A stretch of DNA of 32,000 nt from Candidatus Saccharimonadota bacterium (GCA_030429145.1 JAUIDC010000001.1:450001-482000), one strand, 5' to 3'. Positions 2,773 to 32,000 are shown, counted from the stretch's first letter. A program made the numbers and translations. Notes: generated by a model not told the origin, from the sequence alone.

Positions 2773-3243
2773 ATGAAAAAACTTATTACATTGATCTTGT
2801 TGGTTGTTGTTGGGTGGTCGACTGTCTCGGCTATCAGCTTTTTCGATAATACGTCGAGTGTTTATACAAGAGATCAGCAAGATGCGGTAAAGACAGATGA
2901 TATCTGTGCGACAGATCCACTGAGATGTGGCATGGATAATCCAGGAAGTCGTATACAGGGACTCTATTACAATGGTCCAATTTCAACAGTCTATGAGGCG
3001 CAAAATCAGACGCTGGGATATGTGCATAATATCATCAATTGGGCGTTATCACTCCTTGGGCTGATAGCTCTTTGTTATCTTGTTTATCACGGATTTAATA
3101 TCGTGTTAGGTGTAGGTGATGAGGCAAAGACAAAAGCGTGATGGAAAGGACTGAGGACTGGAGCAATTGCTATCGCAGGTGTTGCGTTGAGCTGGTTTAT
3201 CGTGAGTCTTATCGTCTATATGATAGATCTGTTTATCCAATAA
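2773..3243 (+). CDS. T4SS-pilin-like small membrane protein (TrbC/VirB2-like: signal peptide plus two C-terminal TM helices)
   Basis: N-terminal signal peptide MKKLITLILLVVVGWSTVSA. Two hydrophobic helices are separated by the charged loop GDEAKTKA-G-WKG, whose Gly is TGA 3139-3141. The pattern resembles the CPR/Gram-positive T4SS pilin family as I recall it. Ends TAA 3241-3243. Confidence 0.6.
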
Positions 3244-3258
3244 TATTTGAAAACAAAA

Positions 3259-3723
3259 ATGAAAAACATAAAGCATAGAGGAATTCTTGGGTGGGTCATC
3301 GTGGCGATGATGAGCTTGATGCAGGTTGTGCCTGCTGTCAATGCTATCGATCGAGACCCATACTATCAGGAGATGGAAAACGCTGGAAGACCTACTGCTG
3401 ATGCAGGAAGTATCGTTGGTGACACCAATCAGCAGGGTAGTCTTTTAGAAACGCTTCTTGATGTATTTGATATCAACTACGCCGGAGATGGGAAAGCATT
3501 GAAATATGTACAGGTTGTGATTAATTATGTAATATCATTTGCTGCGTTTATTGCATTGATAGTTATCATCTATGGATTTTATATGATGTTCTTCCGTGAG
3601 CAGGATAAGTGATTTAGTTCTGCAAGGAAAACGATCATTGGTGCAGCGATAGCTCTCTTTGTGATAGGAATCTCTCGAATATTTGTTAACTTTGCGTTTT
3701 ACGTGTTCAATAGAGGAATTTAA
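3259..3723 (+). CDS. T4SS-pilin-like small membrane protein, paralog of the preceding gene
   Basis: Same architecture as the preceding gene, and the C-terminal halves align (YVxxxINxxxS...IAL...Y.GF ... loop ... GAxIA). The loop again contains an in-frame TGA (3610-3612). An alternative TTG start at 3247 is possible. Ends TAA 3721-3723. Confidence 0.6.
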
Positions 3724-3752
3724 TAATATCTTATAGTTCATAACTTATTACC

Positions 3753-4463
3753 ATGGCATTTAAACTCTTTAACTTCGAAAAAGGAAAGATACAGAAGGGG
3801 CAACGTGAGCAGGCTTTCAACACTGAAACGATGCTGCCTATTTCTGAGATCAGAGGAAATACAATGGTGCTGAAGGATGGTGGCCTGAGAGCTGTCATCA
3901 AGGTCTCTGGTCTCAATCTTGATCTCAAGAACTCTGATGAGCAAGAGATAGTCATCCAGCAGTATAAAAGATTTCTCAATGGACTGGATTTTCCTATCCA
4001 GATACTTGTTCGTAGTACCTATCTCGACCTGACACACTACCTCAACTATATGAAAGAAAATGTGAATGCGATAGACAATGATACGCTCAAGAGCCATGGA
4101 GAGCAGTATGTGTCATTTTTAGATGAGATTAATTTGGCACAAGGGTTGATCTATGTAAAGGAGTTTTACATCATTGTGCCGTATTATGACCAAGGAGGAG
4201 AAGATGAAAATCAAGTAAAGAAGTCATGGCGACAGAAGTTTCTCAATGTGTTGGAGAGTAAAGATAGTGCAGAAAAGATAGTACAGAGATATCGCTCGTT
4301 TGTGAAAAATAGAAAATTTTTGGATACGAGATGTGCGTTGATTATGGAAGGGTTGAAAGGATTGAATATTGATACGGAGAGATTGGCTCTGACTGATATG
4401 GTCTCGCTACTCTTTAAGTTTTACAATCCGACCATGCATAACGATCAGGCAGAGACAAAGTAG
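3753..4463 (+). CDS. Stand-alone VirB4/TraE-type N-terminal domain protein (no ATPase domain)
   Basis: LPISEIRGNTMVLKDGGLRAVIKVSGLNLDLKNSDEQEIVIQQYKRFLNGLDFPIQILVRS...FYIIVPY...RLALTDMVSLLFKFYNP matches the N-terminal region of Gram-positive VirB4-like ATPases (Tn916 Orf16 / pIP501 TraE type) as I recall them. The ORF stops at TAG 4461-4463 after 236 aa, and a terminator follows. Confidence 0.6.
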   Translation: MAFKLFNFEKGKIQKGQREQAFNTETMLPISEIRGNTMVLKDGGLRAVIKVSGLNLDLKNSDEQEIVIQQYKRFLNGLDFPIQILVRSTYLDLTHYLNYMKENVNAIDNDTLKSHGEQYVSFLDEINLAQGLIYVKEFYIIVPYYDQGGEDENQVKKSWRQKFLNVLESKDSAEKIVQRYRSFVKNRKFLDTRCALIMEGLKGLNIDTERLALTDMVSLLFKFYNPTMHNDQAETK

Positions 4464-4485
4464 TGTAAAAACCTTGTGATAATAG

Positions 4486-4516
4486 GAGAGAGTGCTATAC
4501 TCTCTTTTGTTTTTTA
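4486..4516 (+). terminator. Rho-independent terminator
   Basis: Stem AGAGAGT (4487-4493) / ACTCTCT (4499-4505), 5-nt loop, then TTTGTTTTTT. Confidence 0.7.
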
Positions 4517-4531
4517 TATAAAAAAGAGTGC

Positions 4532-5206
4532 ATGTTCGGGATAGTGGCGCTGATGTTAGGATTGCCTTGAGGTATGGCTTTGCAGCCATTGGTAGAGCAG
4601 GTTGACTCGTACGTCTACGCACAACAGGTAGATATTTTGACTGATGATAGTATCGCAAGATTTGTTGGTCCCAATGATCCGTTGACAACGCCTCGTTATA
4701 GGCCAGATGATCTTGTAGATTTGACCGATGCAGCATTTATTCGTGTGCAGTGAGGCATAGGATATTTGAGAAAAGAGGCCTTTGATCAGCTTGCAGATAT
4801 GGCGTATCATTTTTATGAGGTCTTTCAAAGGCATCTGACAGTGGTAAGCTCTTTTAGAAGTTATGGGCTACAGAATATGCTTTTTGAAGCATATACAGAA
4901 TCCCATGGGTTAGCGGCAGCAGCAACTTTTTCAGCATTGCCCGGCCGCAGTGAACATCAGCTCGGCTTGTCGGTAGACCTTTTTACCGCAAATGACGTAG
5001 ACGCGGCTGGCTATCAGGGCTATTATGACCGGCTCAGGAAAAGTGCTCACAAGCGATGATGGACGCAGTCATATCAGAAATGATCCCAAATAGACTGATA
5101 TATTGTAGAGCCGTGGCATCGGCGCTATGTGGGAGAAAGGCTTGCTACAGAGCTATATGAGCAGGAATTAACCTTTAGTGAATGGGTAGAGAGATATAAA
5201 AGATAA
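4532..5206 (+). CDS. D-alanyl-D-alanine carboxypeptidase, peptidase M15B (VanY-like)
   Basis: Zinc-site motifs SEHQLGLSVD and EPWHRRYVG, plus an N-terminal hydrophobic anchor. Five in-frame TGAs. Ends TAA 5204-5206. Confidence 0.85.
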
Positions 5207-7250: not shown

Positions 7251-8300
7251 ATGGCAAGTAAAAACCAGGTATTGGATGAAGCGAGGAAGAACATTGAGAA
7301 GAAGTTTGGTAAAGGCGCTCTCATCCGCATGGGTGACAGTAGCAATGTATGACTGGTAAATACATTTCATTCCGGATCATATGTACTAGACCTTATTCTT
7401 GGTGGAGGATATCCAGAAGGACGTGTAGTAGAGATATACGGACCAGAATCATCAGGTAAGACAACCATAGCACTTCATGCGATAGCGGAGATTCAGAAGC
7501 GTGGGGAAACGGCTGCATTTATCGATGCGGAGCACGCGTTGGATCCTGCGTATGCACGTACGTTAGGTGTAGATACAGAAAATTTACTTTTATCACAGCC
7601 AGATTTTGGTGAGCAGGCGCTTGAGATTGCTGAAGAGCTTGCGAAGACGGGGGCTATTAAGCTTATTGTGATCGACTCGGTTGCTGCGCTTGTGCCAAGA
7701 GCAGAAGTAGAAGGTGACATGGGTGATAGTCATATGGGGCTCCAGGCTCGTATGATGTCACAAGGACTCAGAAAACTGACATCTATCATGGCGAAGACAG
7801 GAACAACTATAGTATTCATCAATCAGATTCGTATGAAAATTGGTGTGATGTTTGGTAATCCTGAGACCACAACTGGTGGTAATGCGTTGAAGTTCTACGC
7901 TTCTCAAAGACTCGAGATTAGACGCGGAGAGAAGATAGAAGAAAATAAGGAACTGATCGGATATGCAACGAAGGTAAAGATCGTAAAAAATAAGATCGCT
8001 GCTCCGTTTAGAAGTGCTGAGATACCAGTGAAATTCAAACAAGGTATCGACAGGGGGCTTGATATCATTGAAGCAGGACTTGCTCTTGGACTTATCGAAA
8101 AGGGTGGAGCTTTCTATACTCTACCAGGAAAGAAAGAGAAAGTGCAAGGTAAGGACAAAGTATTAGAGGTATTGAACAGCGATGAAAAACTTTATAACTC
8201 TCTCAATACAGATATCCAAAACAAGATCAAAGAGCTTCGTTCAGGTAAGAAAGTTCTTCCAGAAGAAGCTTTGGAAGAGATTGAAATGGAAGAAGAATAA
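7251..8300 (+). CDS. recA: Recombinase RecA
   Basis: KQFGKG-like N-terminus, Walker [10 protein letters not shown], then IDAEHALDP ... VIDSVAAL ... FINQIR. One in-frame TGA (7350-7352). Ends in TAA. Confidence 0.96.
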
Positions 8301-8336: not shown

Positions 8337-8371
8337 AAAAAACCGTCCTTTGCGCTTTGGGACGGTTTTTT
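8337..8371. terminator. Bidirectional terminator (recA / pilin)
   Basis: A-tract, stem CCGTCC (8343-8348) / GGACGG (8360-8365), then T6. Overlaps the pilin stop codon. Confidence 0.75.
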
Positions 8372-8930
8372 AGTATCCACAGATGTAATTGGTGTCGAAT
8401 CGCGTTGAGGCATTATATGTTGGTGAGACCTTTTCATCTCCGTTGTTGTAATGAATGTACGTCCGAGTAGTGGGGCTTTCTCTGAAGTAGCCAATGTGTA
8501 ATCACTCTCCAGTAATAGCTCCATTGATGCTATACTTATAACAAAAATAACGATAGGAGAATGTTCCGGTTCCAGCGCCAAATCCTGGGAGATGGACTGC
8601 ATTGTTAATGGGATCTACAGGGACGGTATTCATGATGCCTCCTGAAATAAGCCATATGAGAAATTGTCCTGATGAACTGTAATCCCGTCCTCATCGAGAA
8701 GCTATTTCGGTTCCTCCACTATATCTGTATGTGTGCATCAGAAAACCATTGTCCGCGTTGTAGAGAGAAAAAGCATTGTAGATTTGGCTCATGTCTGCTT
8801 TACGTTTAGCATCTCTTGCTCTTCATTGCACGTCTCTCAGTCTTGGTACAAGCGCCGCCGCCAAAATACCTATTATCACGATGACAATAAGCATTTCAAT
8901 AAGCGTAAATGATGGTTTTTTTGTAGTCAT
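8370..8930 (-). CDS. Type IV pilin / pseudopilin (class III signal peptide)
   Basis: N-terminus MTTKKPS-FTLIEMLIVIVIIGILAAALVP, with Glu at +5. Three in-frame TGAs. Ends TAA 8370-8372. Confidence 0.8.
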
Positions 8931-16377: not shown

Positions 16378-19300
16378 TTACTCATTTCAAGAGATTTCTT
16401 CTTCAGCTTGAGGTATCTCATTTTCCTCATTTTCAAGCAACTTTTGTCTGTAGATTTCTCCGACAGGGAGGAGACGACCGATGATCACATTTGATTTAAG
16501 ATCTGTGAGGTTGTCGATGCTTCCCTTGAGAGAGTTGTCTACCATAACACGGATTGTTTCTTGGAACGAAGCAGCTGATAACCAACTGTCTGTCTCTTTC
16601 GCAATCTGTGTCAGACCAAGCGCAAGACGTTTACCTCTTGCCGCTTGCTTCTTCTGCTCTTCGAGCTGTTGATTGACTGAGACGAACTCTTCGTATTTGA
16701 CCATAGTTCCTGGAACAAAGCTTGAGTCTCCAGCATCTTCGATAAACACTTTTGAGAAGAGCTGTTTCACAATCACTTCCATATACTTGTCGTTCACGTC
16801 CTGACCTTGAGATGTATATACCTTTTTCACTTCTCTTACAATATACTTCTGCGCTTCAAGGTCACCAACGATGTTCTTGTACTCTTCAATATCGAGAGAT
16901 CCTGTAGAAAGCACCTGTCATTTCAAGACAGTAGCACCAGACTTCACTTTGAGGGTAGTACCTCCTGAAAGCGACTTCTTGTATTTCTGTACTACACCAA
17001 CAGTAACATACTCTTTATGAACCTCCAATACCAATCCGTCTTCTTTCAATTTCAACTTACTTCTTCCTGATATTGCATAATCATCTCCCTTCTTTACTTC
17101 CTGTCATACTTTCACGGTTGATTTATAACCATCTTTAATGATATATGGCTTTGGTTCTGGCTCTCCAATGATCTCTACATCGAGCTGTTTTCCAACTTCT
17201 GCGATGTGAATCTTTCCATCAAATGGAGCAACGATAGCAGCTTTCTTTGGCTTTCTTACCTCAAAGAGTTCTTCAACTCTTCTGATACCTTGTGTTACGT
17301 CACCACCGTCACCACCTGCGACATTTTCCGCATGGAACGTACGCATTGTTAGCTGTGTACCAGGCTCACCAATTGACTGAGATGAGATAATACCAACAGG
17401 CATACCGATATCTACTGCTCTTCTTGTTGCGAGGTCCATACCGAAACATTTCTGACATACACCGCTGACAACTTTACATGTCATTGGAGATCTCACTTTT
17501 ACCATGTCGATACCTGCATCTACGAGAAGATTCATATTTTTCTTGTTGAGCGTATCATCTTTGTGAAGGATGACAGTACCTTTGTCGTCAGTCACTTCTT
17601 CAGCAAGAACTCTACCGAAGATCAACTCTTTAAATCCTTCACCTCTGATCTCTGCTTCGTCTTTGCTCACTGTGATATAGTCTGTTGTTCCACAATCTTC
17701 TTTTCTCACAATCACTTCTTGTGATGAGTCACAAAGTCTTCTTGTAAGGTATCCTGATTCTGCTGTTCTCAATGCTGTATCGGCCTTTCCTTTACGTGCA
17801 CCATGGGCAGCAATAAAGTACTCAATAGGCGAGAATCCTTCTACGAGTGATGACTGAATAGGAAGTTCAATAATTTCACCTGATGGTGACTGTACGAGAC
17901 CCTTCATACCTGAAAGCTGAGTCATCTGACCCCACGTACCACGCGCTCCTGAGTCAACACAGATATAGGCATTGTTACCTGGTTTATAGTTCTCTTTGAC
18001 AAGTTTTTCAATCTTCTTCACGATATCAGACCATGTCTTAATAATGAGTCTGTGCTTTTCTTCTTCAGACACAAAACCCTTGAACGCATAATTGTAGATC
18101 TCATTTACCTTGACGTGTCCATCTTTCAAAAGTTCTTCCTTTTCTTTTGGTATGATAAGGTCGAACATATTGACGGTTGTCGCTGAGATGGTAGCGTATT
18201 TGAATCCCCAGTCTTTGAGGCTGTCTGCTACTTTCACTACTACGTCCATGTCATAGTGATCATAGATTTCATCGAGAATCTTTTTGATTCCTTTCTTTGT
18301 GATCGTTTCATTCTTAAATCTAATCTTTTCAGGGAGAAGATCATTGAAGAGGACTCTACCTACTGTTGTATCAATGTACTCACCGTTGTGTTGGAACTTA
18401 ATTTGATCACGAAGATGTACTTCACTTGAGTGATATCTTGCCTTTACCTGCTCATAGCTTGTAAAGATACCAGCAAATTTTGGAGTGTCGGTATGATCAT
18501 TGGTGATGTGGTAGATACCAAGTGCCATATCCTGGTGGTGAGTAAGTGTTGGTTCACCAGAAGCTGGTTTGAGGATATTTTTATCTGCAGCAATAAGATC
18601 TCTTGCTTCTCTTTGTGCTTCTTCAGAAAGAGGAAGATGTACTGCCATCTGGTCACCGTCGAAGTCCGCATTGAATGATGAACATACCAATGGGTGAAGT
18701 CTAATAGTCTTACCAGGCATCAATTTGATCTTAAACGCTTCAATAGAAAGTCTATGAAGTGTTGGTGCACGGTTGAGGAGCACGTACTTATCTTTGATAA
18801 CTTCCTCGAGTATTTTGAGTGATACAGGATTTTCTTCTTTGATAAGTTTTTCTGCTTGCTTTGGAGTATAGACGATTTTTCTTTCAATCAGTTTCCCGAT
18901 GATGAAAGGCGTAAACATCTTTACTGCAATGTAGAGTGGTAGTCCACACTCATCGAGATTGAGCTGAGGACCAACGGTAATTACAGATCTACCTGAGTAG
19001 TCCACACGTTTACCAAGAAGGTTCTTTCTAAAGATACCCTCCTTACCAGAAAGCATATCAGTCAGCGACTTAAATACTTTAATACCTGAACCACCTTTGG
19101 CAGCTCCTGCTTTTTCACCAACGATAAGGTTGTTGATAGACTCTTGGAGGAGTCTAATCTCGTTTTTCTTCACAACATCTGGCATTCCAACTTGAATCAT
19201 TTTCTTGAGACGAATATTACGCATAAGTACACGTCTGTAGAAGAGGTTCACGTCAGAAGATGCAAATCTACCACCATCGAGCTGTACGACAGGTCTGAGA

Positions 19301-20190
19301 TCTGGTGGGATAACTGGAAGGTTTTTAATTACCATCCACTCAGGTTTTACATTCGAGATGTAGAGGTTGATAAGGAGCTTCATAAGTTTAAGAGCCTTGT
19401 TTTTAGGTTCTCCTTTGAGCCCTGCAAAATCTTTGATAAGATTTTTGATCTCTTTCTCTACGTCGATGCCAGCGAGAAGCTTATAGATAGCGTCTGAACC
19501 AGATTTAAGTGTCAGCATATCCTCGAATCTCCAGAAGATGTTTCTATAGTCGCTTTCTAGGATGGTTGCTCCTTTTCTGAAATTTGCAACGATAGATTTG
19601 ATTCTGTTGAACTCTTTTTCGAGGGTCGACTTGTTGTCCTGATAGAGCTTCTCTACCTCGTTTTTCTTTGAGTTTTGTTCAAGCTCTTCCTTGTAGAGTT
19701 TTTCTAACTCATCGCTTTTTACCTTGTAGTCTTCTTCAAGTCTTTTGAAGATTTCCTTCTTTTGATCTTCAGTAACGTCGTTAACAAGGACATATTTCAC
19801 AAAATAGAGAATCTTCTCAATTTCGTTTACTGAAAGATTGAGGAGGAGTCCAATTCTCGAAGGAGTTGCTTTAATATACCATACGTGGATAACGGGAGCG
19901 GCGAGTTCTACGTGACCCATTCTCTCTCTTCTTACACGAGAAGTTGTCACTTCTACACCACATCTTTCACACACGATACCCTTGTATCTGATACCTTTAT
20001 ATTTTCCACAACCACATTCGTAGTTTTTCATTGGTCCAAAAATGGCTTCACAGAAAAGACCTCTTGGCTTAGGCTTCCCTGTTCTATAGTTGATAGTATC
20101 AGGGCTATCAACTGAACCAAATGACCATTTTGCTATGTTTTCTGGTGAGGCGAGCGTCACCATCAATCCGTCAAAATGAGATTTTTCCAT
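16378..20190 (-). CDS. rpoC: DNA-directed RNA polymerase subunit beta'
   Basis: Zn-finger CGCGKY...CERCGVEV and catalytic NADFDGDQMAVH. Three ORF fragments share one frame and join via TGA 17104-17106, 16918-16920 and 16387-16389. Ends TAA 16378-16380. 1270 aa. Confidence 0.97.
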
Positions 20191-20300: not shown

Positions 20301-23300
20301 TTATTCAATTTCTCCGTAGTCCTCAAGTTCCGTAATTACCGTTTCTATCATCTCCTTCTTGTCTTCTGCCTTTTGTTCTTCTCCGTCATCTGATCCGTTG
20401 TCGTCTGGACCTCCTTGAGATGTGATACCTCTAAGACCAAGCTGAAGGATCTTGTCTATACGCTCGTTATGAATTGCTTCGATACGTTCTTCAGTAAGTG
20501 GTTCGATATTTTGACCGAGACCCTTGAAGAGATACATCACGAGGTTGAACGATTCAGGAAGTCATGATATTCTCAGCTTGTTTCCTTTGATAATATTTTC
20601 ATATGTCTTATTTCTTCCTGTCACGTCGTCTGACTTGATAGTCAACATTTCCTGGAGCGTGTATACAGCAGAGTATCCTTCGAGTGCCCATACTTCCATT
20701 TCACCGAACCTCTGTCCACCGTCTCTTGCTTTACCACCGAGAGGCTGCTGAGTGATGAGTGAGTAAGGACCAACTGATCTCGCATGGATCTTGTCTTCCA
20801 CCATATGTGATAGCTTCAGGATGTGCATGAAACCAACTGTTACAGGATTTTCGTACGCGATACCCGATCTTCCGTCATAGAGTGTCATTCTACCATCTTT
20901 TGGTAGATCAAATCTTGTGAGAAGTCCTTGGAGATCGTCAACGCTAAATCCTGAGAAGAGAGGAACTGCAAACTTTGTTCCGAGTGCTTTCGCGACCAGA
21001 CCAAGCTGTGTCTCCAATACCTGACCCATATTCATACGAGAGATCACACCGAGTGGGTTGAGGATAACCTCAATTGACTGACCATCAGCAGTATATGGCA
21101 TGTCTTCTTCTGGTACTACATGAGCAATAATACCCTTATTACCATGTCTACCAGCGAGTTTGTCTCCGACCTCAATCTTTCTTGTCATAGCGATATATAC
21201 CTTGATCTTCTTTCTGATACCAGCCATAAGGTTGTCTCCTTTCTTCGAGTCGAGTACGAGGATGTTGATAACCTTACCTTCACTTCCAGATGGAAGGTAG
21301 AGTGATGTATCTTTGAGGGATTTTGATTTATCACCGAAGATTGCTTGGATGAGTTTCTCTTCAGGAGAAAGTTCACCTTCAGATTTAGGTGTAATCTTAC
21401 CAACAAGAATGTCTCCACCCTTTACAGTAGCACCGATTCTCACGATACCTTCTTCGTCAAGATTTTTCAATTTTGCCAATGAAACACCTGGGATATCGTT
21501 TGTCGTCTCTTCAGGTCAGAGCTTTGTATCGGCAACCTCGATCTCATGTTCTTCGATATGGATAGAAGTGAGACTGTCGTCTTTTACGAGCTTTTGTGAG
21601 ATAACGATAGAGTCCTCATAGTTGAATCCTTCCCATGGCATGAAGGCAACTCTCAAGTTTTTACCGAGAGCCATTTCTCCATCCTGGATAGATGGTCCTT
21701 CAGCAAGGATATCTCCTTTCTTTACCTTGTCTCCTACAGAAGCGATAGCCCTTTGATTTACTACAGTTTTCTGGTTAGATCTTTTGAAAGTGATAAGAGA
21801 GTACTCTTTGATTCCCTTCTTGTATTTGACTTTGATTCTCTTTCCGTCAACGTAGATAACCTCTCCGTCGTCTTCAGCTTGCATGACCGCGTATGTCATC
21901 CCTGCAATATCTGCTTCTAGACCCGTACCAACGAGTGGTGCATCATTTTGCAACAATGGTACTGCTTGTCTCTGCATGTTTGTCGCCATACCTGCACGCA
22001 CCGCTTCATCGTGGTCTACAAATGGTACCAAAGAAGTATTTGGTGAGAATATTTGAGAAGAGTTTACGTCAATATGCGTAATATCATTGACGTAGAACAT
22101 TTCCATGTCCATAAGGTGTCTCGCAGCAAGACGTTTTTCAAGGATGTTCTTGTGTTCGTCAAGCTGTGTAGAAACATCTGCTACAATGTATTTCTCATCG
22201 TATTCAGGCGAGATATATTCTACATCATCTGTGAGGAATGGTCTTACCCTTACCATAGTTCCTTTGTCGAGAGCTTTTTTGATAGCAGCAGCAGCTTTCG
22301 CATCGATATAGTTGTCGTCTTTTGCAAGGATCTTGCCTTTCTTGTCCTTAACATCGCCTTCTGCAATCTTTCCAACAAGGTCAGCTGAGTGAGCATCGAC
22401 TTCTTTTCCTACCTTGATAGCAGGAGTTTCAAGAAATCCTTCTTCATTTACTCTTGAGTAGAGGGCCTGATAAACTACGAGACCGATGTTCTGGCCTTCA
22501 GGAGTTTCAATAGGACAAATACGCCCATAGTGAGAAGGGTGTACGTCACGCACTTCGAACTTTGCTGTTTCACGCTTCAAACCACCGGGTCAAAGAGATG
22601 TTAGTCTTCTCTTATGTTCGATTTCTGCGAGTGGGTTGATCTGATCAAGGAATTGTGAAAGCTGTGACGTAGCGAAGAATGATTTGATCGAGTTGTCGAC
22701 GATCTTGAAGTTTACGAGGTCTGTCAACTTGATTTGCTCTTCAGTATTGAGGATAGAAAGCTTACCTTTGATAGACTTTGTGAATTTTCTCATCACAGGA
22801 GCAAGGTGAGAATAGAGGATTTCACCCATAGATCTGATACGTCTATTAGAAAGGTGATCGATATCATCAGCATAGTAACCTTTCTTGTCGTTCGCAATAT
22901 TCATAAGATATCTGAGTCCCGCTACGAGGTCGTCAGCATCAAAAATATTTGCACTATCATCGTTGATAGGCTTTGAGAGTCCAAGTTTTGCATTGATCTT
23001 TCTTCTAGCGACCTTACCAACAAAAATTCTTTCAAGTGTAAGGAACTGTGACTTGATGTAGTCAATAGCTGACTCTGAGTCGATGATTTCACCTGGTCTA
23101 ATCTTTCCATATATATGAAGAGCCGCAGACTCTGCATCGTGTGTAGAGTCTTTTTTGAGTGCAAATTCTACATAGTCGAAATCGTTTTCTTCAGGATCAA
23201 AACAATCCTTAAAGAGCTCGATAATGCTTTCGTCAGTCTCATACCCAAAAACTCTCAATAGTGCAATCACTGAAAACTTTCTTGACTTGTTGATTCTTGC

Positions 23301-23882
23301 TACTATGTTTCCAGATTTTTCAATAATAACTTGGAGCCAAGGACCTTTCTCAGGAATAAGTTTGAAAGAGTAGGTGAAGTCTTTCTTGTCGAAAGAGAAG
23401 AAAATACCGTATGATCTCACAAGCTGAGAGATGATTACTCTTTCTACGCCGTTGATGATGTAAGAACCCCAGCTAGTCATCAAAGGAAGGATACCGATGT
23501 TTGCGCGTTTGTTGAAAAGAACCTTTCCGTTTGAACTATCAGAAAGCTTTATTCTACCACTGATAATTCCACCATAGGTCATCTCTTTTTTCTTGCAGGT
23601 ATCTATATCTTCGATTGGATCACCAACTTTAATATCATCGATGATGAGACCTAGCTTATCACCTCCAATATCATGTATTGGGTTGATCTCCTCAAAAAGT
23701 TTGACGAGATAGTATTCAATAAAATCTTGAAATCCTTTCTGCTGCATACCGAGCAGTTCAGGAAACTCTGCAAACTTCTTCGAATCCTTCAAAAACACTC
23801 TTCCGTTTTTGATGAGATGCTTGTCGAATTCCTTTTCAAGTACGATTGCTGTTGGAGCAGATTTTTTAGTTTGTTTTGCCAT
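20301..23882 (-). CDS. rpoB: DNA-directed RNA polymerase subunit beta
   Basis: Start MAKQTKK at 23882. Four fragments share one frame and join via TGA at SL-G-PGGLKRE (22590-22592), DTKL-G-PEE (21516-21518) and S-G-LPESFN (20562-20564), all invariant Gly in RpoB. Ends TAA 20301-20303. 1193 aa. Confidence 0.97.
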
Positions 23883-23910
23883 GAAGAGGGTAATAACGGG
23901 TAAAAACAAA

Positions 23911-23943
23911 ACACAAAAAAGCACCAGCGGTTATCCCGTGGTC
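23911..23943 (-). terminator. Terminator-like hairpin (probable attenuator) between rpmH and rpoB
   Basis: On the minus strand: stem ACCA-CGG / CCG(C)TGGT with a 5-nt loop, followed by GCTTTTTTGTGTTTTGTTTTT. The U-tract ends about 28 nt before the rpoB ATG. Confidence 0.5.
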
Positions 23944-24185: not shown

Positions 24186-24251
24186 GACGTAACAGAGTTT
24201 ACAATATATAAAGTTAATAGTAGTATGATAATATTTGGTGAGTTATACAAC

Positions 24252-24821
24252 TTAATTAGTGTAAGGCAACACACCCAACTCTCTTGCTCTGATGACAGCA
24301 GTTCTGATCTTCTTTTGGTGAGTTACTCTATTGCCCATAAATGCTCTTGGCTTGATATCACCGAATCTTGTCATGTAGTGTCTGAGAAAGTTTACAGACT
24401 TTCGATTCACATGAGCCAATGCCTCTTTTCCATTGAGGAAGCCTTTCTTCACAGCAGCCTCCTTAGGCTTTTTTTCTTCATCTTTCTCCCAAGCTTTATT
24501 GATTTCCTTGAAAGATACAAGCTTTTCATTTGTCTTCATGAGGAAGAAGGCAAATCTTACAAGACCTTTCATGATAGCAAAAGCCGATTTGAGCTTCTGG
24601 ATGTTTTCACCCGGAAGTTCTACATGGTAAGATACGAAGTATGCTTGTTTGATTCTTGCTTTTGTAATGTGATGCGCAAGATCCATCATGCCCATTTCAT
24701 CAGTGTCAATGATCTTTCCTCCGTTAGAAGAGAGGTGAGACTGAACATCAGCAATGATCTTTTCTTGATCGTCCTTACTAAGTTGCGGATGAATGAGGAT
24801 TACGAGTTCATAATGTTTCAT
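24252..24821 (-). CDS. rpsF/rpsR: Fused ribosomal proteins S6 (N-terminal) and S18 (C-terminal)
   Basis: A single uninterrupted 189-aa ORF. Residues 1 to ~95 (MKHYELVILIHPQLS...DEMGMMDLAHHI...) are S6-like. Residues ~130-189 (VNFLRHYMTRFGDIKPRAFMGNRVTHQKKIRTAVIRARELGVLPYT) are S18-like. A Lys/Glu-rich linker joins them. Confidence 0.85.
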   Translation of the reverse strand: MKHYELVILIHPQLSKDDQEKIIADVQSHLSSNGGKIIDTDEMGMMDLAHHITKARIKQAYFVSYHVELPGENIQKLKSAFAIMKGLVRFAFFLMKTNEKLVSFKEINKAWEKDEEKKPKEAAVKKGFLNGKEALAHVNRKSVNFLRHYMTRFGDIKPRAFMGNRVTHQKKIRTAVIRARELGVLPYTN

Positions 24822-24918
24822 CTGTATAGATAGAGGGGAATAATATAAAGGGTGATAGGTTCAAATGCTTAGAGCACCATACAACCTTATTGATTATGAT
24901 TGGATGTCTTTTATATGA

Positions 24919-25728
24919 CTAGATTGCAAATCTTTGGAAGTCAGCAATCTCAAGATTTCCCTGAGCAAAGTCTTTTACTTTTTTGCTGTCGTCCCAGATA
25001 GCTGATTGTTCGAGGAGTACAAAGTCAGAGAACTCTTTATCGAGTCTTCCTGCAACGATCTTTTCAATGATCTCAGCAGGCTTTCCTGAAGCTGCAACCT
25101 CTGCGCTGATCGCTTCTTTTGCCTGACTTACCTTATCAGCAGGAACAGTGTCCATAGAGAGGTATTCAGGGTTCATAGCCGCGATCTGAAGTGCAATGTT
25201 TTTTGCTACTTCTTCAGCATTGTCGCTAAGACTCTTGTAGTATACTACAGCAACGATCTTGTCTCCAGGATGAGTGTAGACAAAGGCATTTTCCGTACGA
25301 ATAAATGCGTCATCGAGCTTGATGTTTTCACCAATCTTACCAACAGTTTCATGCACAAGAGCGTCCCAAGACTGCTTTGTGTTTTCATCTACTTGATCGA
25401 GAGAAGAAAAGTCTTTGTCGTATTTTTTTACCTCTTCGAGAAGTCTGTTCGTAAGATCAATAAACAGATCATTTTTCGTTACAAAGTCAGTTTCGCAAGC
25501 AACTTTGATACCAACAACTCTGTTGTTATCATTGACTACTTTTACAATACCTTCATTTGTTTCTCTATCTGCTTTCTTTGCTGCCTGAGAAGCTCATTTC
25601 TTTTTAAGCCACTCCATAGCTGCATCGAAATCCCCGTTTGATTCTACGAGAGCCTCCTTACAGTCCTTAAGAGGAGCAAAACTGGTGTCTCTGAGCTTTT
25701 TGAGCAAGTTCATATCAACACTACTCAT
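24919..25728 (-). CDS. tsf: Elongation factor Ts
   Basis: N-terminal UBA-like LLKKLRDTSFAPLKDCKEALVESNGDFDAAMEWLKKK-G-A, with that Gly encoded by TGA 25594-25596. EF-Ts core follows. Ends in TAG. Confidence 0.92.
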
Positions 25729-25766
25729 GAGTATATTTACGCAGTTAATAAGCTAAAAATACTTTT

Positions 25767-26225
25767 TTATAATGTTTTTTCTGAGTCTGATGTCTCATTG
25801 GAATGTACAGAAGTATCTACAATCTCGATTTCTACCGAAAAGAGATCAACCATCCATCATCCAACTCCTTCGAAAAGAGGAAGGAAAATCTTATCCTTTG
25901 AGAATGAAGTGTATCTTCAATCCCACGCTTGCTTTGTAAGAATAATCCATATAGCAAGCAGAGCAGCATAGATGAGAACAGGCAGCACCTTAAGATAAGG
26001 AAGAAAGATGAGCACTATAGAGGGAACGAGCAATAAAAAGAATAACACTCGCCATCCCATTGCTTGTTTGCAATGAAAGAACTCATATCTGGTCATCTTT
26101 CCTTGTGTCAAAGATATCACAATACCTCGCAGAAAGTACATTAAGATGCTTTTTTTTCTTTCCAAAGCACTCGGTACATACTGCTGGGCAATTAGTTGAT
26201 CAATCTCTGTCTGCTGCTGAGCCAT
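25767..26225 (-). CDS. Small integral membrane protein (DUF4870-like, tentative)
   Basis: Hydrophobic segments around the motif YEFFHCKQAMGW. Extends through two TGAs to TAA 25767-25769. Its ATG (26225) lies 1 nt after the rpsB stop. Confidence 0.55.
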
Positions 26226-26889: not shown

Positions 26890-27005
26890 GCGATAATACA
26901 AAATAGATAAAATCAAAACCATCTAACTCTAGCAAGGTATCCTCTCGTATAGCCGGAAATATGCATTTCTCTTACGCCATGTGAGCGATAGCAAGAGTAG
27001 TGTTA

Positions 27006-27386
27006 TTACTTAAGGTTAACTGTAGCACCAGCTTCCTGAAGTTTGTTTTGCATAGTCTCAGCTTCTTCTCCTTTCACGTTTTCTTTGATGATAACAGGAG
27101 CTTTTTCAACGAGTTCTTTCGCTGCCTTAAGATCAACACCAAGAAGCTCTTTTACTACCTTGATAACTGCGATCTTTTGCTGACCAGCATCAGTAAGTTC
27201 TACGTTAGCGCTATCCTTAGCACCACCTTCGTCGTCACCACCTGCAGCAGCTCCGCCTCCTACTACCATAGCAGCAGCAGTTACACCAAATTCTTCTTCA
27301 AGAGCTTTCACGAGATCAGCAAGCTCTACAGCTGTAAGTTCTTTTACAAGATCAAAGATCTTTTGAGCGTTATCAGTCAATGTCAT
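27006..27386 (-). CDS. rplL: 50S ribosomal protein L7/L12
   Basis: [15 protein letters not shown], an Ala/Gly hinge, then [27 protein letters not shown]...EAGATV. Confidence 0.95.
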
Positions 27387-27436
27387 TCTAGTACAATAAT
27401 TTATAAAGTTAAAAAGTGTACATGAGTGTATAAGAA

Positions 27437-28192
27437 TTATTTATTTTCTTCTTCTTTTGGTTCTTCTGTAGCCTCTTCTTCGGTGCTAGCATTGTCAGTT
27501 GACTCTGCTGTCTCCGTAGGAGTCTCTGTGTCTTCTTTTTTGTCGGCTTCACTAGCGTCAGTTGAGCTTTCTTCAGTAGTAGCCTCAGCTGTAGTAGCTT
27601 CATCTGCTGCCGCAGGAGTCTCACTTTCTGTTGATTGCTCTTCTTTTACTTCCTGAGCAGGAGCTTCTTGTGTCGAAGTTCCTTCGTCGAGCTTGTTTTT
27701 AACAGCATCGAGCGTACCAACCAACTTCTGTACTGGATGTTTGAGAAGGAAAAGAAGTTTTCCAACGAGCTCTTCTTTTGAAGGAAGGTCAGCGAGTGTT
27801 CTTACATACTCAGCATCTTTCCACTCTTTGTCGAACCATCCACCTACATATTCAAATCCATACTTCTTGTCTGCTTTTTTAAGAGACTTGATGTACTTTT
27901 GCACCTCCTTGAGTGGTGCATACTCATCTTCTGTTGCGTAGAGTGCAACAACTGCGCCGTCAAGATCCTTATGTTCAACAACCTGATAGCCTGCTGACTC
28001 AAGTGATCTCAGGAAGAGTCTTTTTCTAATAACATTGAGTTTCCCTCCTACGTTGAGGACGTTCATTCTCAATGAGCTAGACTCGATAACAGGTATACCT
28101 GATTGCTTCAGGATAACCACGTTTGCAGCTGATGAGAGGTCATTTCCATAACCTTGTACAAGCTCTTTCTTTTTGTCTTTTGAAATAGCCAT
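27437..28192 (-). CDS. rplJ: 50S ribosomal protein L10 with an ~83-aa acidic low-complexity C-terminal extension
   Basis: [12 protein letters not shown]...[11 protein letters not shown]...LRMNV...LNVIRKRLF is L10-like. Residues ~169-251 are E/T/A/S/D-rich. I prefer ATG 28192 over the hydrophobic upstream extension. Confidence 0.9.
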
Positions 28193-28409: not shown

Positions 28410-30368
28410 TTATTTTTTCGATGTTTCCTCTTTCGCATCGAGAGAAAATGGAGTGGTTGGCAGAAGGTTTGCATTGAAGTTTTCTGCGAGGAATTTTGTG
28501 ATTTTGTCTTGATTGAGAGGGCTACTTGTGGTGATCTCTTTGTTGTTGACCACATAGGCAAGGAAGTTACGCATCTTCGTCCCAACATCACCCTTGTCGC
28601 CCAAAATATCTTGCTTGTCTTTCAAGTCTTCCTCACTTAGCTGAGTACCTTTGAGCATAAAGCTTCTGAAATCAGCACTCTTATTCATAAGATCATTAAA
28701 TGCTCTCTTAAATACCTTACTCTGGGCAGAGACTTGTTTACCTTTTGTTAATTCTCTTATCTTTTCGATGATGTTGTTTGCGCCTCCTGGTGTCGCTAAT
28801 ATCAATTGATTCTCATCGGGTATAGAGATATCGCTGTTGTATATTTCAGCCTCATTGACACCAAAGGTCTTTTTTACAGTCTTACCAAACTCACTACTAT
28901 AGAATTGACTTTGTAGTCTATCGATTTGATCTTGTTTTTTATTTGCATAGTAGCCGCCCTCAACATATGTCTGTTTCAAGCTTCTTCCTGTCTTACTCAG
29001 TCCTGCAATGGATGTGGCCTTTCCACCAAATGGGATCACATTGACATTGGTCACGAGTTTTTCTGATCGGTCAAAGATGCTGTTTGCTGCGCCCTTTGTA
29101 AACTTTGAAAAGTCTTTCGATATCTTTAAGAGAGACCAGAGTAGCACAATAGTAAAGCATGTCAGAATGAGATATCCTGTCATCCCGCCCACGAAATTAC
29201 CAACGCTCTTGAAGAGGTCTCCCTCAATAGTTATCTCAGTGCCACTATTACGATCGGCAATAGTAGACTGACTACTGTCAGCAGTAAAGGTGAGATTGTC
29301 TATAGATTCTTCAAATGTTGTACTACTTTGCTGGTTACCAGGATCTCAACCTAAAACATAAAACATACCAATACTGAGGATCATCACGAGTGCTAACGAT
29401 CCAATCATGACTACTGGTTGGAATACTAAACTTAACACATCTGTTAGTTTGCCAAACCCAAGCTTTTCTCCAGCAGTTTTGACAAATCCTGGAGATTCTT
29501 TGTCTCCAAAAGACCACGAGATAGCTGCAAGCGGTGCAAATGATATCCAAATCCAAAGTCTGAATATTCTGATCAGATTGATGACAATCAGAATCAGCAG
29601 AGGCACGCAAAATGCGAGAAGTAAGAATAGTTTGATGAATAGTCAAATAGAGAAGTTTTTGATATTGGTTACATCTTGGTTGAGTATGTCATAGTCTTGG
29701 AACCTGAAAATACTCGCTCCCATAAAGAGTAGTGGTCCACTCATGTTGTTGAAGCTACCAAACATGCTTTCGATGGTCTGCTTGCCCGTATATGTCTTAA
29801 TATGTTCATCATTTTTAGCAAGGCTGATCTCGACTCTTTCTGGTACCGTAACAGCCATCTGTGCCATCTTGCTTTTGCTCAGATTGTCAGTTGAACCCTG
29901 AATGAACTGCTGAGGAAATGCTCCGACTGCTGCAGTAGCGATGTTTGCTAGGTCGACAAAAGCACCCATGATAAACCAACTCATCTGGATGAGTACTCCT
30001 GCAAGAAGAAACCTTGGCAGTACTTTTTTTAGTTCAAATGCGTCTTTGCTGAAAAACGATTTGAGAATGCCCGCAAGAAAGAGAAATCACAGTATGAAGT
30101 TTGCTATGTTCTTCATATAGTTCCATAGCTTAAAGAGAGCGCTATCGAGATGGATGAATGTACCATAGATGAAATCATTGGACATAAGCTTCCCTGCGAG
30201 AAATGCGAGGAGCATCCATCCCCATGAAAGAACCTTTACTATGGCATTAAAGATTTCAACAGACCATGATACTGCAGGATCTCACTCGGCGGCAAAAGCT
30301 GGATGTATCCAGAAGAGACATCCTAGTCAGATTAGTATAACTAACGCTTTTGCGTGCTGTTTCATCAT
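28410..30368 (-). CDS. Large polytopic membrane protein (652 aa), tentatively VirB6/TrbL-like; paralog of the upstream gene
   Basis: Four ORF fragments share one frame and join through TGA (five in-frame TGAs in total). Signal peptide MMKQHAKALVILI-G-LGCLFWIHPAFA, at least 6 hydrophobic helices, and a ~230-aa hydrophilic C-terminal domain. Ends TAA 28410-28412. The ATG lies 2 nt after the upstream stop. Confidence 0.8.
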
Positions 30369-30370
30369 GA

Positions 30371-32000
30371 TTATTGGTTTGTTGTGTTAGTAGTATTGTT
30401 TGCGTTGTTGTCTTTATCTTTGTTTGTGTTGTTAGTGTTTTGTTTATTATTGTTGTTATTTTGAGATTGATCGTCTGCATTATCTGCGCCATCATTAGCA
30501 GATTTGTTGTCGTCAGCAGCAGTCTTATTTAACCATGTGCTAAATGGAGTAGCTAGAGTTGTGTTGTCTGGTTTCATCTTCTTCATTGTCTCTTTATCTA
30601 TAGTAGGAAGGAGTGACTCCCAAGAAGCCTCGTCTGTATAGTTTGTCTTAGCACTATTGCCTTTCTTTTGCGATACGAAACCATCTTTCGTCATAGTATA
30701 GGTTGTGCCATCGGGCATGACGAATGATTTATCTTTTAGCTCTCCTTGCGCTGTGGCCTGGCTTGCTTCCGCTGCAACCTGGTCGATTTTGACAGTGATG
30801 TCATCCTTTATGTCGTCTCTACCAGTATAGAAGTCTTTGATCTGCTGTGCGGTGAGTCCTGCGCCTCCAGCTGCGAGAGGAGTTGCGAGATATCTGACGA
30901 AATCATCGTTTTGGAATGCCTCGTTTACGCTCTTGAAAGGACCAATCTTTCTTGTTTCAGCAATTTTGTTTACGAGGTCCAGACTCGGCTGTCCGTATTG
31001 GCTCAGGTCGAGCTGATTACCTTGGAGAGTAATACCTGCATTGGATGCATTGTAGAGAGCTCCTGTCGGTCATACGAGCGACCCGATTTGCTTGTTCACG
31101 TCGGCGTTTGTTTTGATGCCAGCAATAGCGCTTTTAATCTGAGCCTGTCATTTACTCTTCTGATCGGTAAATGTACCCTGGAAGATGTTTTCAATAGTAG
31201 GGGAAACAACCGTTCTTGCATTTTCCTCTGAAGCTCTTTCGATCTGATTTCCGATCTTTGAGGTTGTGTTTTTCAGTGCTGCGATACTTGTTCCACCTCC
31301 GATAGGGATGATTTCTGCCGTAGAGACAGCATTGGTGGCAACTTTTTCTAGGCTGTTTACTACGCCTCCAGTAAACGATGTGCTCTTCATCGCTGTCATG
31401 ACGATCGTCCACATGAGTCCGGTTCCGAAGATGTTGAGGATAAGCCATGGAAAGAAGTCGAGCATACCTGACACACCAAGATCCTGCGAAGGATTGTCGA
31501 TACAAAGCGTCGTAACAACAAGATTGATACAGGTCTTGTTGTTTTCGTTGAATGTGTTCATGCCTACGTCTTCTAGGCTGTTTCCCTTTGTAAGTCATTC
31601 GCTGAGTACTGAAAGGAAGACGATACTAATACTGATGGCAAACGTAACGATCACAGGAAGGAAGATCATTGCAAGAGCGTTTTTTACTGCGAATTTATCA
31701 TAGTTCTTTCCGATTTTACTAAGACTAAATCAAAATACTTCACTGAGTACCAATACTGGCGAGAAAGCGATTGTGATCCAGAGGATAGCAATTCTAATGA
31801 TGAGTATCACACACAGTATGAGTAGTGGAACAAGATATGCGATACCTATGATAGCTTTAATGATAGACTCCATAGTCATGGCTCCTATCGACTTGTTGAC
31901 GTTGACATGGATACTTCCAAGGTTGAGAAGACTACCGTAGAGCGTGTAGAAAGCGCCTTGGTATCCTTTAGATTTTTGTACGATACTTGAAATGTTCTGA
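30371..32000 (-). CDS. Large polytopic membrane protein (N-terminus outside window) with a hydrophilic C-terminal domain and an Asn/Thr-rich tail; paralog of the downstream gene
   Basis: The frame is continuous from the window edge to TAA 30371-30373 with four in-frame TGAs (hand-verified codon by codon for 31150-30716). It shares ordered motifs with the next gene (LILxVIxxIRIxxLWIxIxFxP; xIPxGGxxTSIAxL). Confidence 0.8.

What the first reader, a model, noticed from the sequence alone, without database searches (positions are those of the whole stretch)
2773..4463. Mini-operon: two paralogous T4SS-pilin-like proteins plus an orphan VirB4 N-terminal domain with no ATPase
- **Layout:** three tightly spaced genes (gaps of 15 and 29 nt), ending in a strong terminator (4486-4516).
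- **Genes 1 and 2:** each has a signal peptide plus two C-terminal TM helices, which is the TrbC/VirB2-type pilin layout.
- **Gene 3:** it matches only the N-terminal ~230 aa of Gram-positive VirB4-like ATPases (LPI..I..g..v.kdG....v..v...N..L....EQ......f..fL.....iQILVRS.., ...FY.iVPY, ..L...E.v.Ll...yNP). It then stops, with no Walker A/B domain downstream.
- **Why it matters:** a VirB4 N-domain encoded as a separate protein next to the pilins, embedded among housekeeping genes, is not a canonical T4SS layout. It could be a split ATPase, a degenerate remnant, or a repurposed surface-filament module in an episymbiotic CPR cell.
Basis: partly seen in the sequence, partly recalled or inferred. 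Interest (0 to 1): 0.65.

Follow-up and report, generated by a model that had tools for sequence, protein, structure and literature searches.

The report
Pilin pair plus detached VirB4 N-domain
Three real genes in an SR1/Absconditabacteria-type bacterium encode two secretion-pilus subunits and the detached front end of the secretion motor VirB4; the motor itself is encoded elsewhere in related genomes, and this arrangement was already published for this bacterial group in 2025.

Summary
Under genetic code 25 (UGA=Gly) the window has three co-oriented genes: g1 2773-3243, g2 3259-3723 and g3 3753-4463. The gaps are 15 and 29 nt, and a terminator-like hairpin follows at 4481-4511.

- **g1 and g2:** distant paralogues, each with a signal peptide and a C-terminal two-helix hairpin. 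g1 passes the Pfam T4SS_pilin threshold.
- **g3:** a soluble 236-aa protein that aligns end to end with the first ~217 residues of full-length patescibacterial VirB4. It ends at a genuine TAG.

"Orphan, no ATPase" is true only of this locus. The clade's own VirB4 (~680 aa) lacks exactly this N-domain. g3 covers positions 87-233 of a full-length VirB4 profile, and the relatives' VirB4 covers 233-893. Two complete relatives carry both genes, about 22 kb and hundreds of kb apart.

The trio is a conserved unit: 71 of 85 related loci have both pilin genes directly upstream, and dN/dS is 0.05-0.14.

g3 belongs to the TrsD-type standalone VirB4 N-domain proteins of monoderm conjugation systems. Quinonero-Coronel et al. 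2025 reported TrsD homologues across Patescibacteria, unlinked from virB4 specifically in Gracilibacteria.

This genome's own virB4 was not located. Interest is low to moderate.

The parts
2773..3243 (+). g1: VirB2/TrbC-type T4SS pilin-like protein, 156 aa under code 25. It has a signal peptide, a variable exposed region and a two-TM hairpin. One in-frame UGA (Gly123) sits in the inter-helix loop.
   Evidence: Pfam PF18895 T4SS_pilin scores 34.1 bits against a cutoff of 26.6. NCBIfam Mbov_0395 pilin-like family gives E=1.5e-4, below its cutoff. Hydrophobic segments are at 1-25, 86-115 and 126-156. dN/dS is 0.09-0.14 against the L010/L011 orthologues. A g1-like ORF holds this position in 71 of 85 related loci.
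3259..3723 (+). g2: second pilin-like protein, 154 aa, a distant paralogue of g1 with the same topology. One in-frame UGA (Gly118) sits in the loop.
   Evidence: BLASTP of g1 against g2 gives 25% identity over residues 74-152, E=1.9e-6. Pfam TrbC scores 19.2 bits and T4SS_pilin 12.5 bits, both below threshold. Hydrophobic segments are at 8-31, 80-114 and 124-151. jackhmmer runs from g1 and from g2 converge on the same 169 ORFs.
3753..4463 (+). g3: standalone VirB4 N-terminal domain protein of the TrsD type (PF26593 'TraC-like'). It is 236 aa and soluble, with no TM segment, no P-loop and no in-frame UGA. It ends at TAG.
   Evidence: sequence homology to the VirB4 N-terminus and TrsD; the 13 best PDB fold matches are all TrwK/VirB4 of R388; no TM segment, dN/dS 0.05-0.09; 37 invariant columns in 48 homologues.
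4481..4521 (+). Intrinsic-terminator-like hairpin plus T-run that closes the three-gene unit.
   Evidence: 14-pair stem, 3-nt loop, followed by TTTTATATAA. The sequence is read directly.

Best explanation
The three genes form one operon of a dispersed, chromosomal, monoderm-type (MPF-FATA-like) type IV secretion system in an Absconditabacterales (SR1) bacterium that uses genetic code 25.

g1 and g2 are Sec-exported VirB2-like pilin paralogues that sit in the membrane as helical hairpins. g3 is the membrane-proximal N-terminal domain of VirB4, made as a separate soluble polypeptide (TrsD type).

In this clade the VirB4 ATPase gene encodes only the middle and P-loop domains and lies elsewhere in the genome. 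I infer that the g3 protein associates non-covalently with that ATPase. It would supply the surface that in fused VirB4 contacts VirB3/PrgI-type membrane partners, and so couple the ATPase to pilin extraction and pilus or channel assembly.

Co-transcription of g3 with the two pilins suggests it works at the pilin-handling step.

**Shown:** domain identities, the complementary tiling with the clade's VirB4, co-occurrence in relatives, operon conservation and purifying selection.

**Inferred:** physical association with VirB4, a role in pilin handling, and the presence of virB4 in this particular genome.
For: **g3 is the VirB4 N-domain.**
- g3 20-234 aligns to residues 4-217 of the 797-aa VirB4 P0254 (E=7e-27).
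- It hits VirB4_plasma at profile positions 87-233 of 894 and TrsD at E=3e-9.
- The database annotates it as PF26593 TraC-like. The same domain is annotated on 118 of 120 full-length Paceibacteria VirB4s.
- The 13 best fold matches are all R388 TrwK/VirB4.

**The clade's VirB4 lacks that domain.**
- None of 120 Absconditabacterales-type VirB4s (about 613-773 aa, mostly 670-700) carries PF26593.
- A. praedator VirB4 covers VirB4_plasma positions 233-893 and CD1110 positions 183-733 of 752.
- Its residues 127-681 align to P0254 234-784 at 43% identity.

**Both genes occur in one genome.**
- CP054059.1: g3 homologue at 596,594-597,298, VirB4 at 619,714-621,765.
- CP006913.1: about 997 kb versus 271 kb.
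- L052 and L088 have them 5-8 kb apart.

**The ancestral adjacent layout exists.** A Pontibacillus plasmid carries, in order: pilin-like, pilin-like, VirB6-like, VirB3/PrgI-like, g3 homologue, an overlapping 621-aa CD1110 VirB4, and a PG hydrolase.

**The operon is conserved.** 71 of 85 loci have two pilin-like ORFs directly upstream, while the flanking genes vary. dN/dS is 0.05-0.14.

**Literature.**
- TrsD is the most abundant T4SS component in Patescibacteria. It lies next to virB4 except in Gracilibacteria, and it is essential in Ca. S. epibionticum (PMC12102498).
- VirB3 wraps the VirB4 N-domain, and VirB4 helps extract VirB2 from the membrane (PMC9259494).
Against: - This genome's own virB4 was not found. 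Only about 48 kb (the window plus L008 and L009) could be inspected, and it holds no P-loop T4SS ATPase.
- No test of physical interaction was possible.
- The structural match to VirB4 is weak in absolute terms: Foldseek E about 0.01, TMq 0.42, model pLDDT 70.5.
- A profile search of PDB sequences found nothing.
- The local Pfam copy gave no hit for g3.
- g3 scores far below the NCBIfam TrsD cutoff (36.9 against 200 bits) and matches only half of that model.
- g3 lacks the N-terminal TM helix seen in the Pontibacillus homologue, so its membrane association would need partners.
- Transcriptional separation from virB4 is also compatible with an ATPase-independent role.
Confidence: 0.72

Rival explanations
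1. Autonomous pilin module. The pilin pair and the g3 protein form a surface-filament or membrane-remodelling unit that no longer needs the VirB4 ATPase. g3 would act as a pilin chaperone or scaffold on its own.
For: The trio is a self-contained, terminated operon that is unlinked from virB4 in most relatives. virB4 in relatives has its own downstream pilin-domain gene.
Against: The clade's VirB4 has lost exactly the domain that g3 supplies, which argues for continued joint function. No energy source for pilin extraction would remain. In Firmicutes the homologue is translationally coupled to VirB4.
Confidence: 0.15
2. Extra regulatory paralogue. g3 is a decoy copy of the N-domain that competes with, or gates, assembly of the ATPase on the membrane platform, and is not an integral subunit.
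For: Standalone N-domain proteins are very numerous: 1693 representative clusters. Some lineages have the domain fused, so fused and free copies could coexist in some genomes. That coexistence was not tested.
Against: In this clade no fused copy was seen that g3 could compete with (0 of 120). The very strong conservation is more typical of a structural subunit.
Confidence: 0.08
3. Degenerate remnant of a decayed conjugative element, or an assembly or frameshift artefact that cut off the ATPase.
For: There is no ATPase, relaxase or coupling protein in the window.
Against: The same protein appears in an independent assembly. More than 860 homologues share the same length and stop position. dN/dS is 0.05-0.09. 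The downstream DNA is a terminator followed by an unrelated VanY gene in another frame context.
Confidence: 0.02

Closest known systems
TrsD/TraD of staphylococcal conjugative plasmids pGO1/pSK41 (MPF-FATA; NCBIfam NF041427) and their homologues on Firmicutes plasmids
   Same: All are small standalone proteins homologous to the VirB4 N-terminus, and they partner a VirB4 that lacks that region. g3 hits NF041427 at E=3e-9. It also hits standalone ~190-270-aa ORFs on 343 plasmids, 250 of them predicted conjugative. The Pontibacillus example sits directly before a 621-aa CD1110-family VirB4 and after pilin-like, VirB6-like and VirB3-like genes.
   Different: g3 scores far below the curated TrsD cutoff and matches only model positions 1-100 of 201. 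It has no N-terminal TM helix. It is chromosomal, is not adjacent to virB4, and is co-transcribed with the two pilin genes instead. No relaxase or coupling protein is nearby.
Patescibacterial chromosomal T4SS as described by Quinonero-Coronel et al. 2025 (PMC12102498)
   Same: The components match: TrsD homologue, VirB2-like pilin arrays, and a VirB4 nested in MPF-FATA. The paper states that TrsD homologues are associated with virB4 except in the class Gracilibacteria, which is the situation here.
   Different: The text I read does not describe the tight pilin-pilin-TrsD operon, nor that the Gracilibacteria-type VirB4 lacks the N-domain that TrsD supplies. Both were measured here.
N-terminal domain of VirB4/TrwK in the R388 T4SS (PDB 7O41, 8RTB; PMC9259494)
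   Same: These are the best and only coherent structural matches to the g3 model. In R388 this domain is wrapped by VirB3 and sits at the membrane face of the ATPase.
   Different: In R388 the domain is covalently part of an ~820-aa ATPase of a diderm system. Sequence similarity to g3 is undetectable by profile search, and TM-score is only 0.42.
VirB2/TrbC pilins, Pfam PF18895 T4SS_pilin, and the Mbov_0395 pilin-like proteins of Mycoplasma ICEs
   Same: They share the signal peptide plus two-helix hairpin topology. g1 passes the PF18895 cutoff. Both g1 and g2 give weak hits to the Mbov_0395 family.
   Different: g2 is below every curated cutoff. Both proteins have a ~60-residue variable exposed segment before the hairpin. 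No pilus has been observed for this clade.

Membership tests
Pfam PF18895 T4SS_pilin / VirB2-TrbC pilins | Profile score above the gathering threshold (26.6 bits) | tested here: met
   g1 scores 34.1 bits. g2 scores only 12.5 bits on PF18895 and 19.2 bits on TrbC (cutoff 27.9), so for g2 this feature is not met by score. g2 is linked through paralogy to g1 (E=2e-6) and convergent jackhmmer results.
Pfam PF18895 T4SS_pilin / VirB2-TrbC pilins | Signal peptide followed by two hydrophobic helices separated by a short charged loop | tested here: met
   Hydropathy segments are g1 1-25, 86-115, 126-156 and g2 8-31, 80-114, 124-151. Signal-peptide cleavage was not predicted with a dedicated tool.
VirB4/TraC/CagE T4SS ATPase | P-loop NTPase domain with Walker A and B motifs (PF19044, PF12846, PF01935) | tested here: not met
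   g3 has no P-loop hit and stops at TAG. It aligns only to residues 4-217 of a 797-aa VirB4. g3 is therefore not a VirB4 ATPase.
VirB4 N-terminal domain (PF26593 TraC-like) | Homology to the first ~210 residues of full-length VirB4 | tested here: met
   BLASTP gives E=7e-27. NCBIfam VirB4_plasma gives E=3e-15 at positions 87-233. PF26593 is precomputed for the window protein P0001 and for full-length VirB4s. The top 13 fold matches are TrwK/VirB4. Caveat: the local Pfam copy returned no hit.
TrsD/TraD family (NCBIfam NF041427) | Score at or above the curated cutoff (200 bits) over the whole 201-position model | tested here: not met
   g3 scores 36.9 bits, E=3.3e-9, on model positions 1-100 only. 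It is a homologue of that narrowly defined subfamily, not a member of it. The CONJscan FATA_trsD profile used in PMC12102498 could not be run here.
Split VirB4 (N-domain protein plus N-less ATPase) | A partner ATPase in the same genome that lacks the N-domain, with complementary coverage of a full-length profile | tested here: inconclusive
   This is met in relatives. A. praedator and SR1 RAAC1 carry both genes, and the profile coverage is complementary at 87-233 and 233-893. It is not verified for this genome, because only about 48 kb could be read and virB4 is not in it.
Conjugative T4SS (mobile element) | Relaxase and type IV coupling protein in the locus | tested here: not met
   The window's ORFs gave no such hit. 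The flanks are housekeeping genes: gltX, vanY, murB, recA. PMC12102498 reports that most patescibacterial T4SS clusters lack a relaxase.

The most novel reading that the evidence does not exclude
In Absconditabacterales the VirB4 N-domain has been permanently uncoupled from the motor and recruited into a pilin operon. In this reading the g3 protein is a dedicated pilin-loading adaptor, expressed with the two pilin paralogues at pilin-like levels. It docks onto a conserved N-terminal peptide of the N-less VirB4 (motif at residues ~7-24) only during pilus growth. This would give a predatory or epibiotic cell a regulated, modular T4SS pilus. The tandem 652-aa and 864-aa membrane paralogues near rplJ could be the 'missing' VirB6.
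Probability: 0.25. Interest if true: 0.5.

Novelty: new member of a known kind. Interest (0 to 1): 0.28.

Why it matters
T4SS genes, including the TrsD homologue, are reported essential for epibiotic growth of a cultivated Saccharibacterium (cited in PMC12102498), yet TrsD has no assigned function.

Two results here give a concrete, testable hypothesis for TrsD: it is the detachable membrane-proximal domain of VirB4, acting at the pilin step.
- The Absconditabacterales VirB4 lacks exactly the domain that the TrsD-type protein supplies.
- That protein is locked into an operon with two pilins.

This refines published knowledge and does not add a new kind of system. As a genome-scan finding it is a correctly recognised but already described feature.

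Tried and rejected
- **Pfam on g3:** the local scan gave no hit. The family PF26593 appears only in the precomputed annotations.
- **PDB sequence searches:** phmmer and a profile search with g3 found nothing relevant.
- **Longer representatives (290-480 aa):** I tested whether they were UGA-truncated VirB4s. They match only VirB4 residues ~1-240 and carry unrelated extensions, so they are not.
- **Paceibacteria VirB4 (P0254) as a seed for the clade's VirB4:** this returned only Paceibacteria. The clade's VirB4 was reached instead through two loci where it lies within 10 kb.
- **Supplement tables of PMC12102498:** the stored text is cut before the Gracilibacteria rows, so no per-genome data could be taken from it.
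- **Look-up with a code-25 translation:** A table-11 fragment worked.
- **The two large membrane proteins as VirB6:** there is only a faint TrbL hit (E=0.11) and no match to the Pontibacillus VirB6-like protein. This is left as a lead.
- **VanY as a linked cell-wall hydrolase:** it is adjacent in only 2 related loci, so I rejected it as part of the module.
- **Papers on Vampirococcus and on groundwater Gracilibacteria:** neither says anything specific about VirB4 or TrsD.

Full report
**1. Genetic code and gene models**

Table-11 ORF calling splits obvious housekeeping genes, for example GltX into 1150-1629 and 1639-2514. Reading UGA as Gly (code 25) roughly doubles the total length of ORFs of 100 aa or more. 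It also restores GltX (991-2658), RecA (7251-8300), RpoC (16378-20190) and RpoB (20301-23924).

Under code 25 the finding consists of three genes:
- g1, 2773-3243, 156 aa
- g2, 3259-3723, 154 aa
- g3, 3753-4463, 236 aa

The gaps are 15 and 29 nt. g3 contains no UGA and ends in TAG, a stop in either code. A terminator-like hairpin with a 14-pair stem lies at 4481-4511 and is followed by a T-run. The next gene, 4532-5206, is a VanY-type peptidase.

**2. The two small proteins**

g1 passes the Pfam gathering threshold for T4SS_pilin (34.1 against 26.6 bits). g2 gives only sub-threshold TrbC/VirB2 and T4SS_pilin hits. Both give weak hits to the Mbov_0395 pilin-like conjugal transfer family.

Hydropathy shows an N-terminal signal-like segment and two C-terminal TM segments in each protein. 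g1 and g2 are 25% identical over the hairpin (E=2e-6), and iterated searches from either one converge on the same set of ORFs. They are distant paralogues of VirB2-type pilins.

Each carries a single UGA codon in the loop between the helices.

**3. g3 is the N-terminal domain of VirB4 as a separate protein**

- g3 has no hit in the local Pfam copy.
- It matches NCBIfam VirB4_plasma (Mbov_0397 family) at E=3e-15, covering profile positions 87-233 of 894. It matches TrsD/TraD at E=3e-9.
- The large protein database holds more than 860 homologues. All of the best 120 are 174-242 aa and are annotated PF26593 'TraC-like'.
- The exhaustive representative search found 1693 clusters. The best are mostly standalone proteins of 200-250 aa, and one is a 797-aa full-length VirB4. 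g3 residues 20-234 align to residues 4-217 of that protein (29% identity, E=7e-27).
- Longer representatives (290-480 aa) also match only VirB4 residues ~1-240, so the module boundary is consistent.
- An AlphaFold2 model (pLDDT 70.5) gives TrwK/VirB4 chains of the R388 T4SS as its 13 best PDB matches (prob up to 0.99, TMq 0.42). After these the list drops to unrelated folds. That match is weak but specific.
- A profile search of PDB sequences found nothing.

**4. The ATPase is not missing from the clade; it is N-less and encoded elsewhere**

Full-length Paceibacteria VirB4s carry PF26593 at their own N-terminus in 118 of 120 cases.

A scan of one genome per species returned 300 relatives of g3, and I kept 80 loci, all of Absconditabacterales/SR1 type. 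Searching the code-25 ORFs of all loci with a full-length VirB4 profile found an ATPase within 10 kb in only two of them, L052 and L088. Its match begins at profile position ~217.

Using that 689-aa protein as a query gave the clade's VirB4 family, mostly 670-700 aa. All members have P-loop domains, and none of 120 has PF26593.

The Ca. Absconditicoccus praedator VirB4 covers these regions:
- VirB4_plasma positions 233-893 (g3 covers 87-233)
- CD1110 positions 183-733 of 752
- P0254 residues 234-784, aligned to its own residues 127-681 at 43% identity

g3 and this VirB4 therefore tile a full-length VirB4 with a break at the domain boundary.

Both genes lie on one chromosome in two complete genomes:
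- A. praedator: 596.6 kb and 619.7 kb, same strand, about 22 kb apart.
- SR1 RAAC1: about 997 kb and 271 kb.

I could not locate virB4 in the window's own genome. The window plus ~6 kb to the left (L008) and ~9.5 kb to the right (L009) contain none.

**5. The trio is a conserved unit**

Of the 85 loci with at least 1 kb upstream of the g3 homologue:
- 71 have two pilin-like ORFs directly upstream on the same strand, usually in the order g1-like then g2-like
- 4 have one
- 10 have none

The flanking genes vary. vanY is adjacent in only 2 loci, recA lies within ~2 kb in 10, and gltX lies upstream in 11.

dN/dS against the two closest orthologues is 0.05-0.09 for g3 and 0.09-0.14 for g1. Synonymous sites are near saturation, and for g2 they are fully saturated, so no ratio could be computed for it. 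In an alignment of 48 g3 homologues, 37 columns are invariant. These results exclude a decaying remnant or an artefact.

**6. Relation to known systems**

tblastn of g3 against plasmids hit 343 records, all below 60% identity, mostly Firmicutes, with 250 predicted conjugative.

In a Pontibacillus plasmid the gene order is:
1. Mbov_0395-family pilin-like protein
2. a second pilin-like protein
3. a TrbL/VirB6-like protein
4. a PrgI/TraL (VirB3)-like protein
5. the g3 homologue
6. a 621-aa CD1110-family VirB4, overlapping the previous gene
7. a peptidoglycan hydrolase

An S. aureus plasmid has the fused form, 834 aa. The split N-domain is therefore a known feature of monoderm MPF-FATA systems (TrsD/TraD of pGO1/pSK41). 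The window's trio looks like a fragment of that ancestral operon.

Quinonero-Coronel et al. 2025 (PMC12102498) already report the following:
- TrsD, remotely homologous to the VirB4 N-terminus, is the most abundant T4SS component in Patescibacteria.
- It is usually next to virB4, 'with the notable exception' of Gracilibacteria.
- VirB2-like pilin arrays are common.
- VirB6 is not detected in Gracilibacteria.
- Relaxases are mostly absent.
- The TrsD homologue is essential in Ca. S. epibionticum.

**7. Mechanism (inferred)**

In the R388 structure VirB3 wraps around the VirB4 N-terminal domain at the membrane face, and VirB4 participates in extracting VirB2 pilin from the membrane (PMC9259494).

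I propose that the g3 protein supplies this membrane-proximal domain in trans to the N-less VirB4. Its co-transcription with the two pilins would then reflect a role at the pilin-recruitment or extraction step.

The clade's VirB4 has its own ~125-residue N-extension. It has a short conserved motif at residues ~7-24, then a Lys-rich variable linker. This motif could be the docking element, but that is speculation.

**8. Verdict**

- **Observation:** confirmed.
- **Interpretation:** partly supported. The domain calls and the 'split ATPase' reading are right. 'Orphan', 'remnant' and 'non-canonical' are not.
- **Novelty:** a new member of a known kind, whose peculiar unlinked arrangement in this class is already published. 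Two points are incremental: the strict pilin-pilin-TrsD operon, and the exact complementarity with an N-less VirB4.
- **Interest:** 0.28.

Noticed in passing
window 3139-3141 and 3610-3612: Each pilin gene has exactly one in-frame UGA (Gly123 in g1, Gly118 in g2), at the equivalent place in the loop between the two TM helices. Under the standard code both genes would be cut after the first helix, which is how code-11 pipelines call them (117-122-aa fragments in L008).
   Followed up: partly
window 28410-30368 (-) and 30371-32000 (-), continued in L009 8597-11191: This is a tandem pair of large polytopic membrane paralogues, 652 aa and 864 aa, 42% identical in their N-terminal TM region. The pair is conserved across Absconditabacterales. 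It lies directly downstream of the pilin-pilin-TrsD trio in L002/L003 and within 10 kb of it in 15 fetched loci. Only a faint TrbL/VirB6 Pfam hit was found (E=0.11). It is a possible candidate for the VirB6 that the literature reports as undetectable in Gracilibacteria.
   Followed up: partly
L008 5549-5902 (about 350-700 bases left of the window start); also L011 4971-5432, L020 4373-4711, L022, L032, L046: A third pilin-like gene (precomputed T4SS_pilin hit) lies about 4.5-5 kb upstream of g3 in the same organism and in several relatives. It is separated from the trio by housekeeping genes (NUDIX, gltX).
   Followed up: partly
L090 12073-14112 (Ca. A. praedator) and L091 12076-15167 (SR1 RAAC1): In both complete relatives virB4 is followed by a 335-345-aa polytopic membrane ORF with no family hit. 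After that comes a protein with T4SS_pilin-type hairpins: 310 aa in A. praedator, where PF18895 matches three stretches (38 bits), and 694 aa in SR1 RAAC1, which has only a weak precomputed hit. This looks like a second, virB4-linked pilin-type gene.
   Followed up: partly
P0403 and relatives, residues 1-125 (not in the window): The N-less VirB4 of this clade has its own N-terminal extension. It has a short conserved motif (consensus N.vyDTnYt..i..gg.p, residues ~7-24), then a Lys-rich variable linker, then conserved sequence from ~residue 81. The function is unknown.
   Followed up: partly
window 8370-8930 (-): A 186-aa protein carries a prepilin N-terminal methylation motif (PF07963, E=1.4e-7). 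It is a type IV pilus or pseudopilus subunit, unrelated to the T4SS pilins.
   Followed up: no
L009 89-7267 (about 34.3-41.5 kb in window-equivalent coordinates, beyond the right end): A run of five co-oriented ORFs of 283-668 aa. Four start with a signal-peptide-like segment and are Cys-containing; the 575-aa one does not. No family annotation is on record for the fragments called there. The run lies upstream of a Metallophos gene and the two large membrane paralogues.
   Followed up: no
window 24225-25971 (+) and 26961-27941 (+): Under code 25 long ORFs open up on the strand opposite real genes (for example antisense to the L10 gene). Their translations are low-complexity and rich in Ser, Phe and Cys. 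They look like artefacts of removing UGA as a stop and should not be annotated.
   Followed up: no
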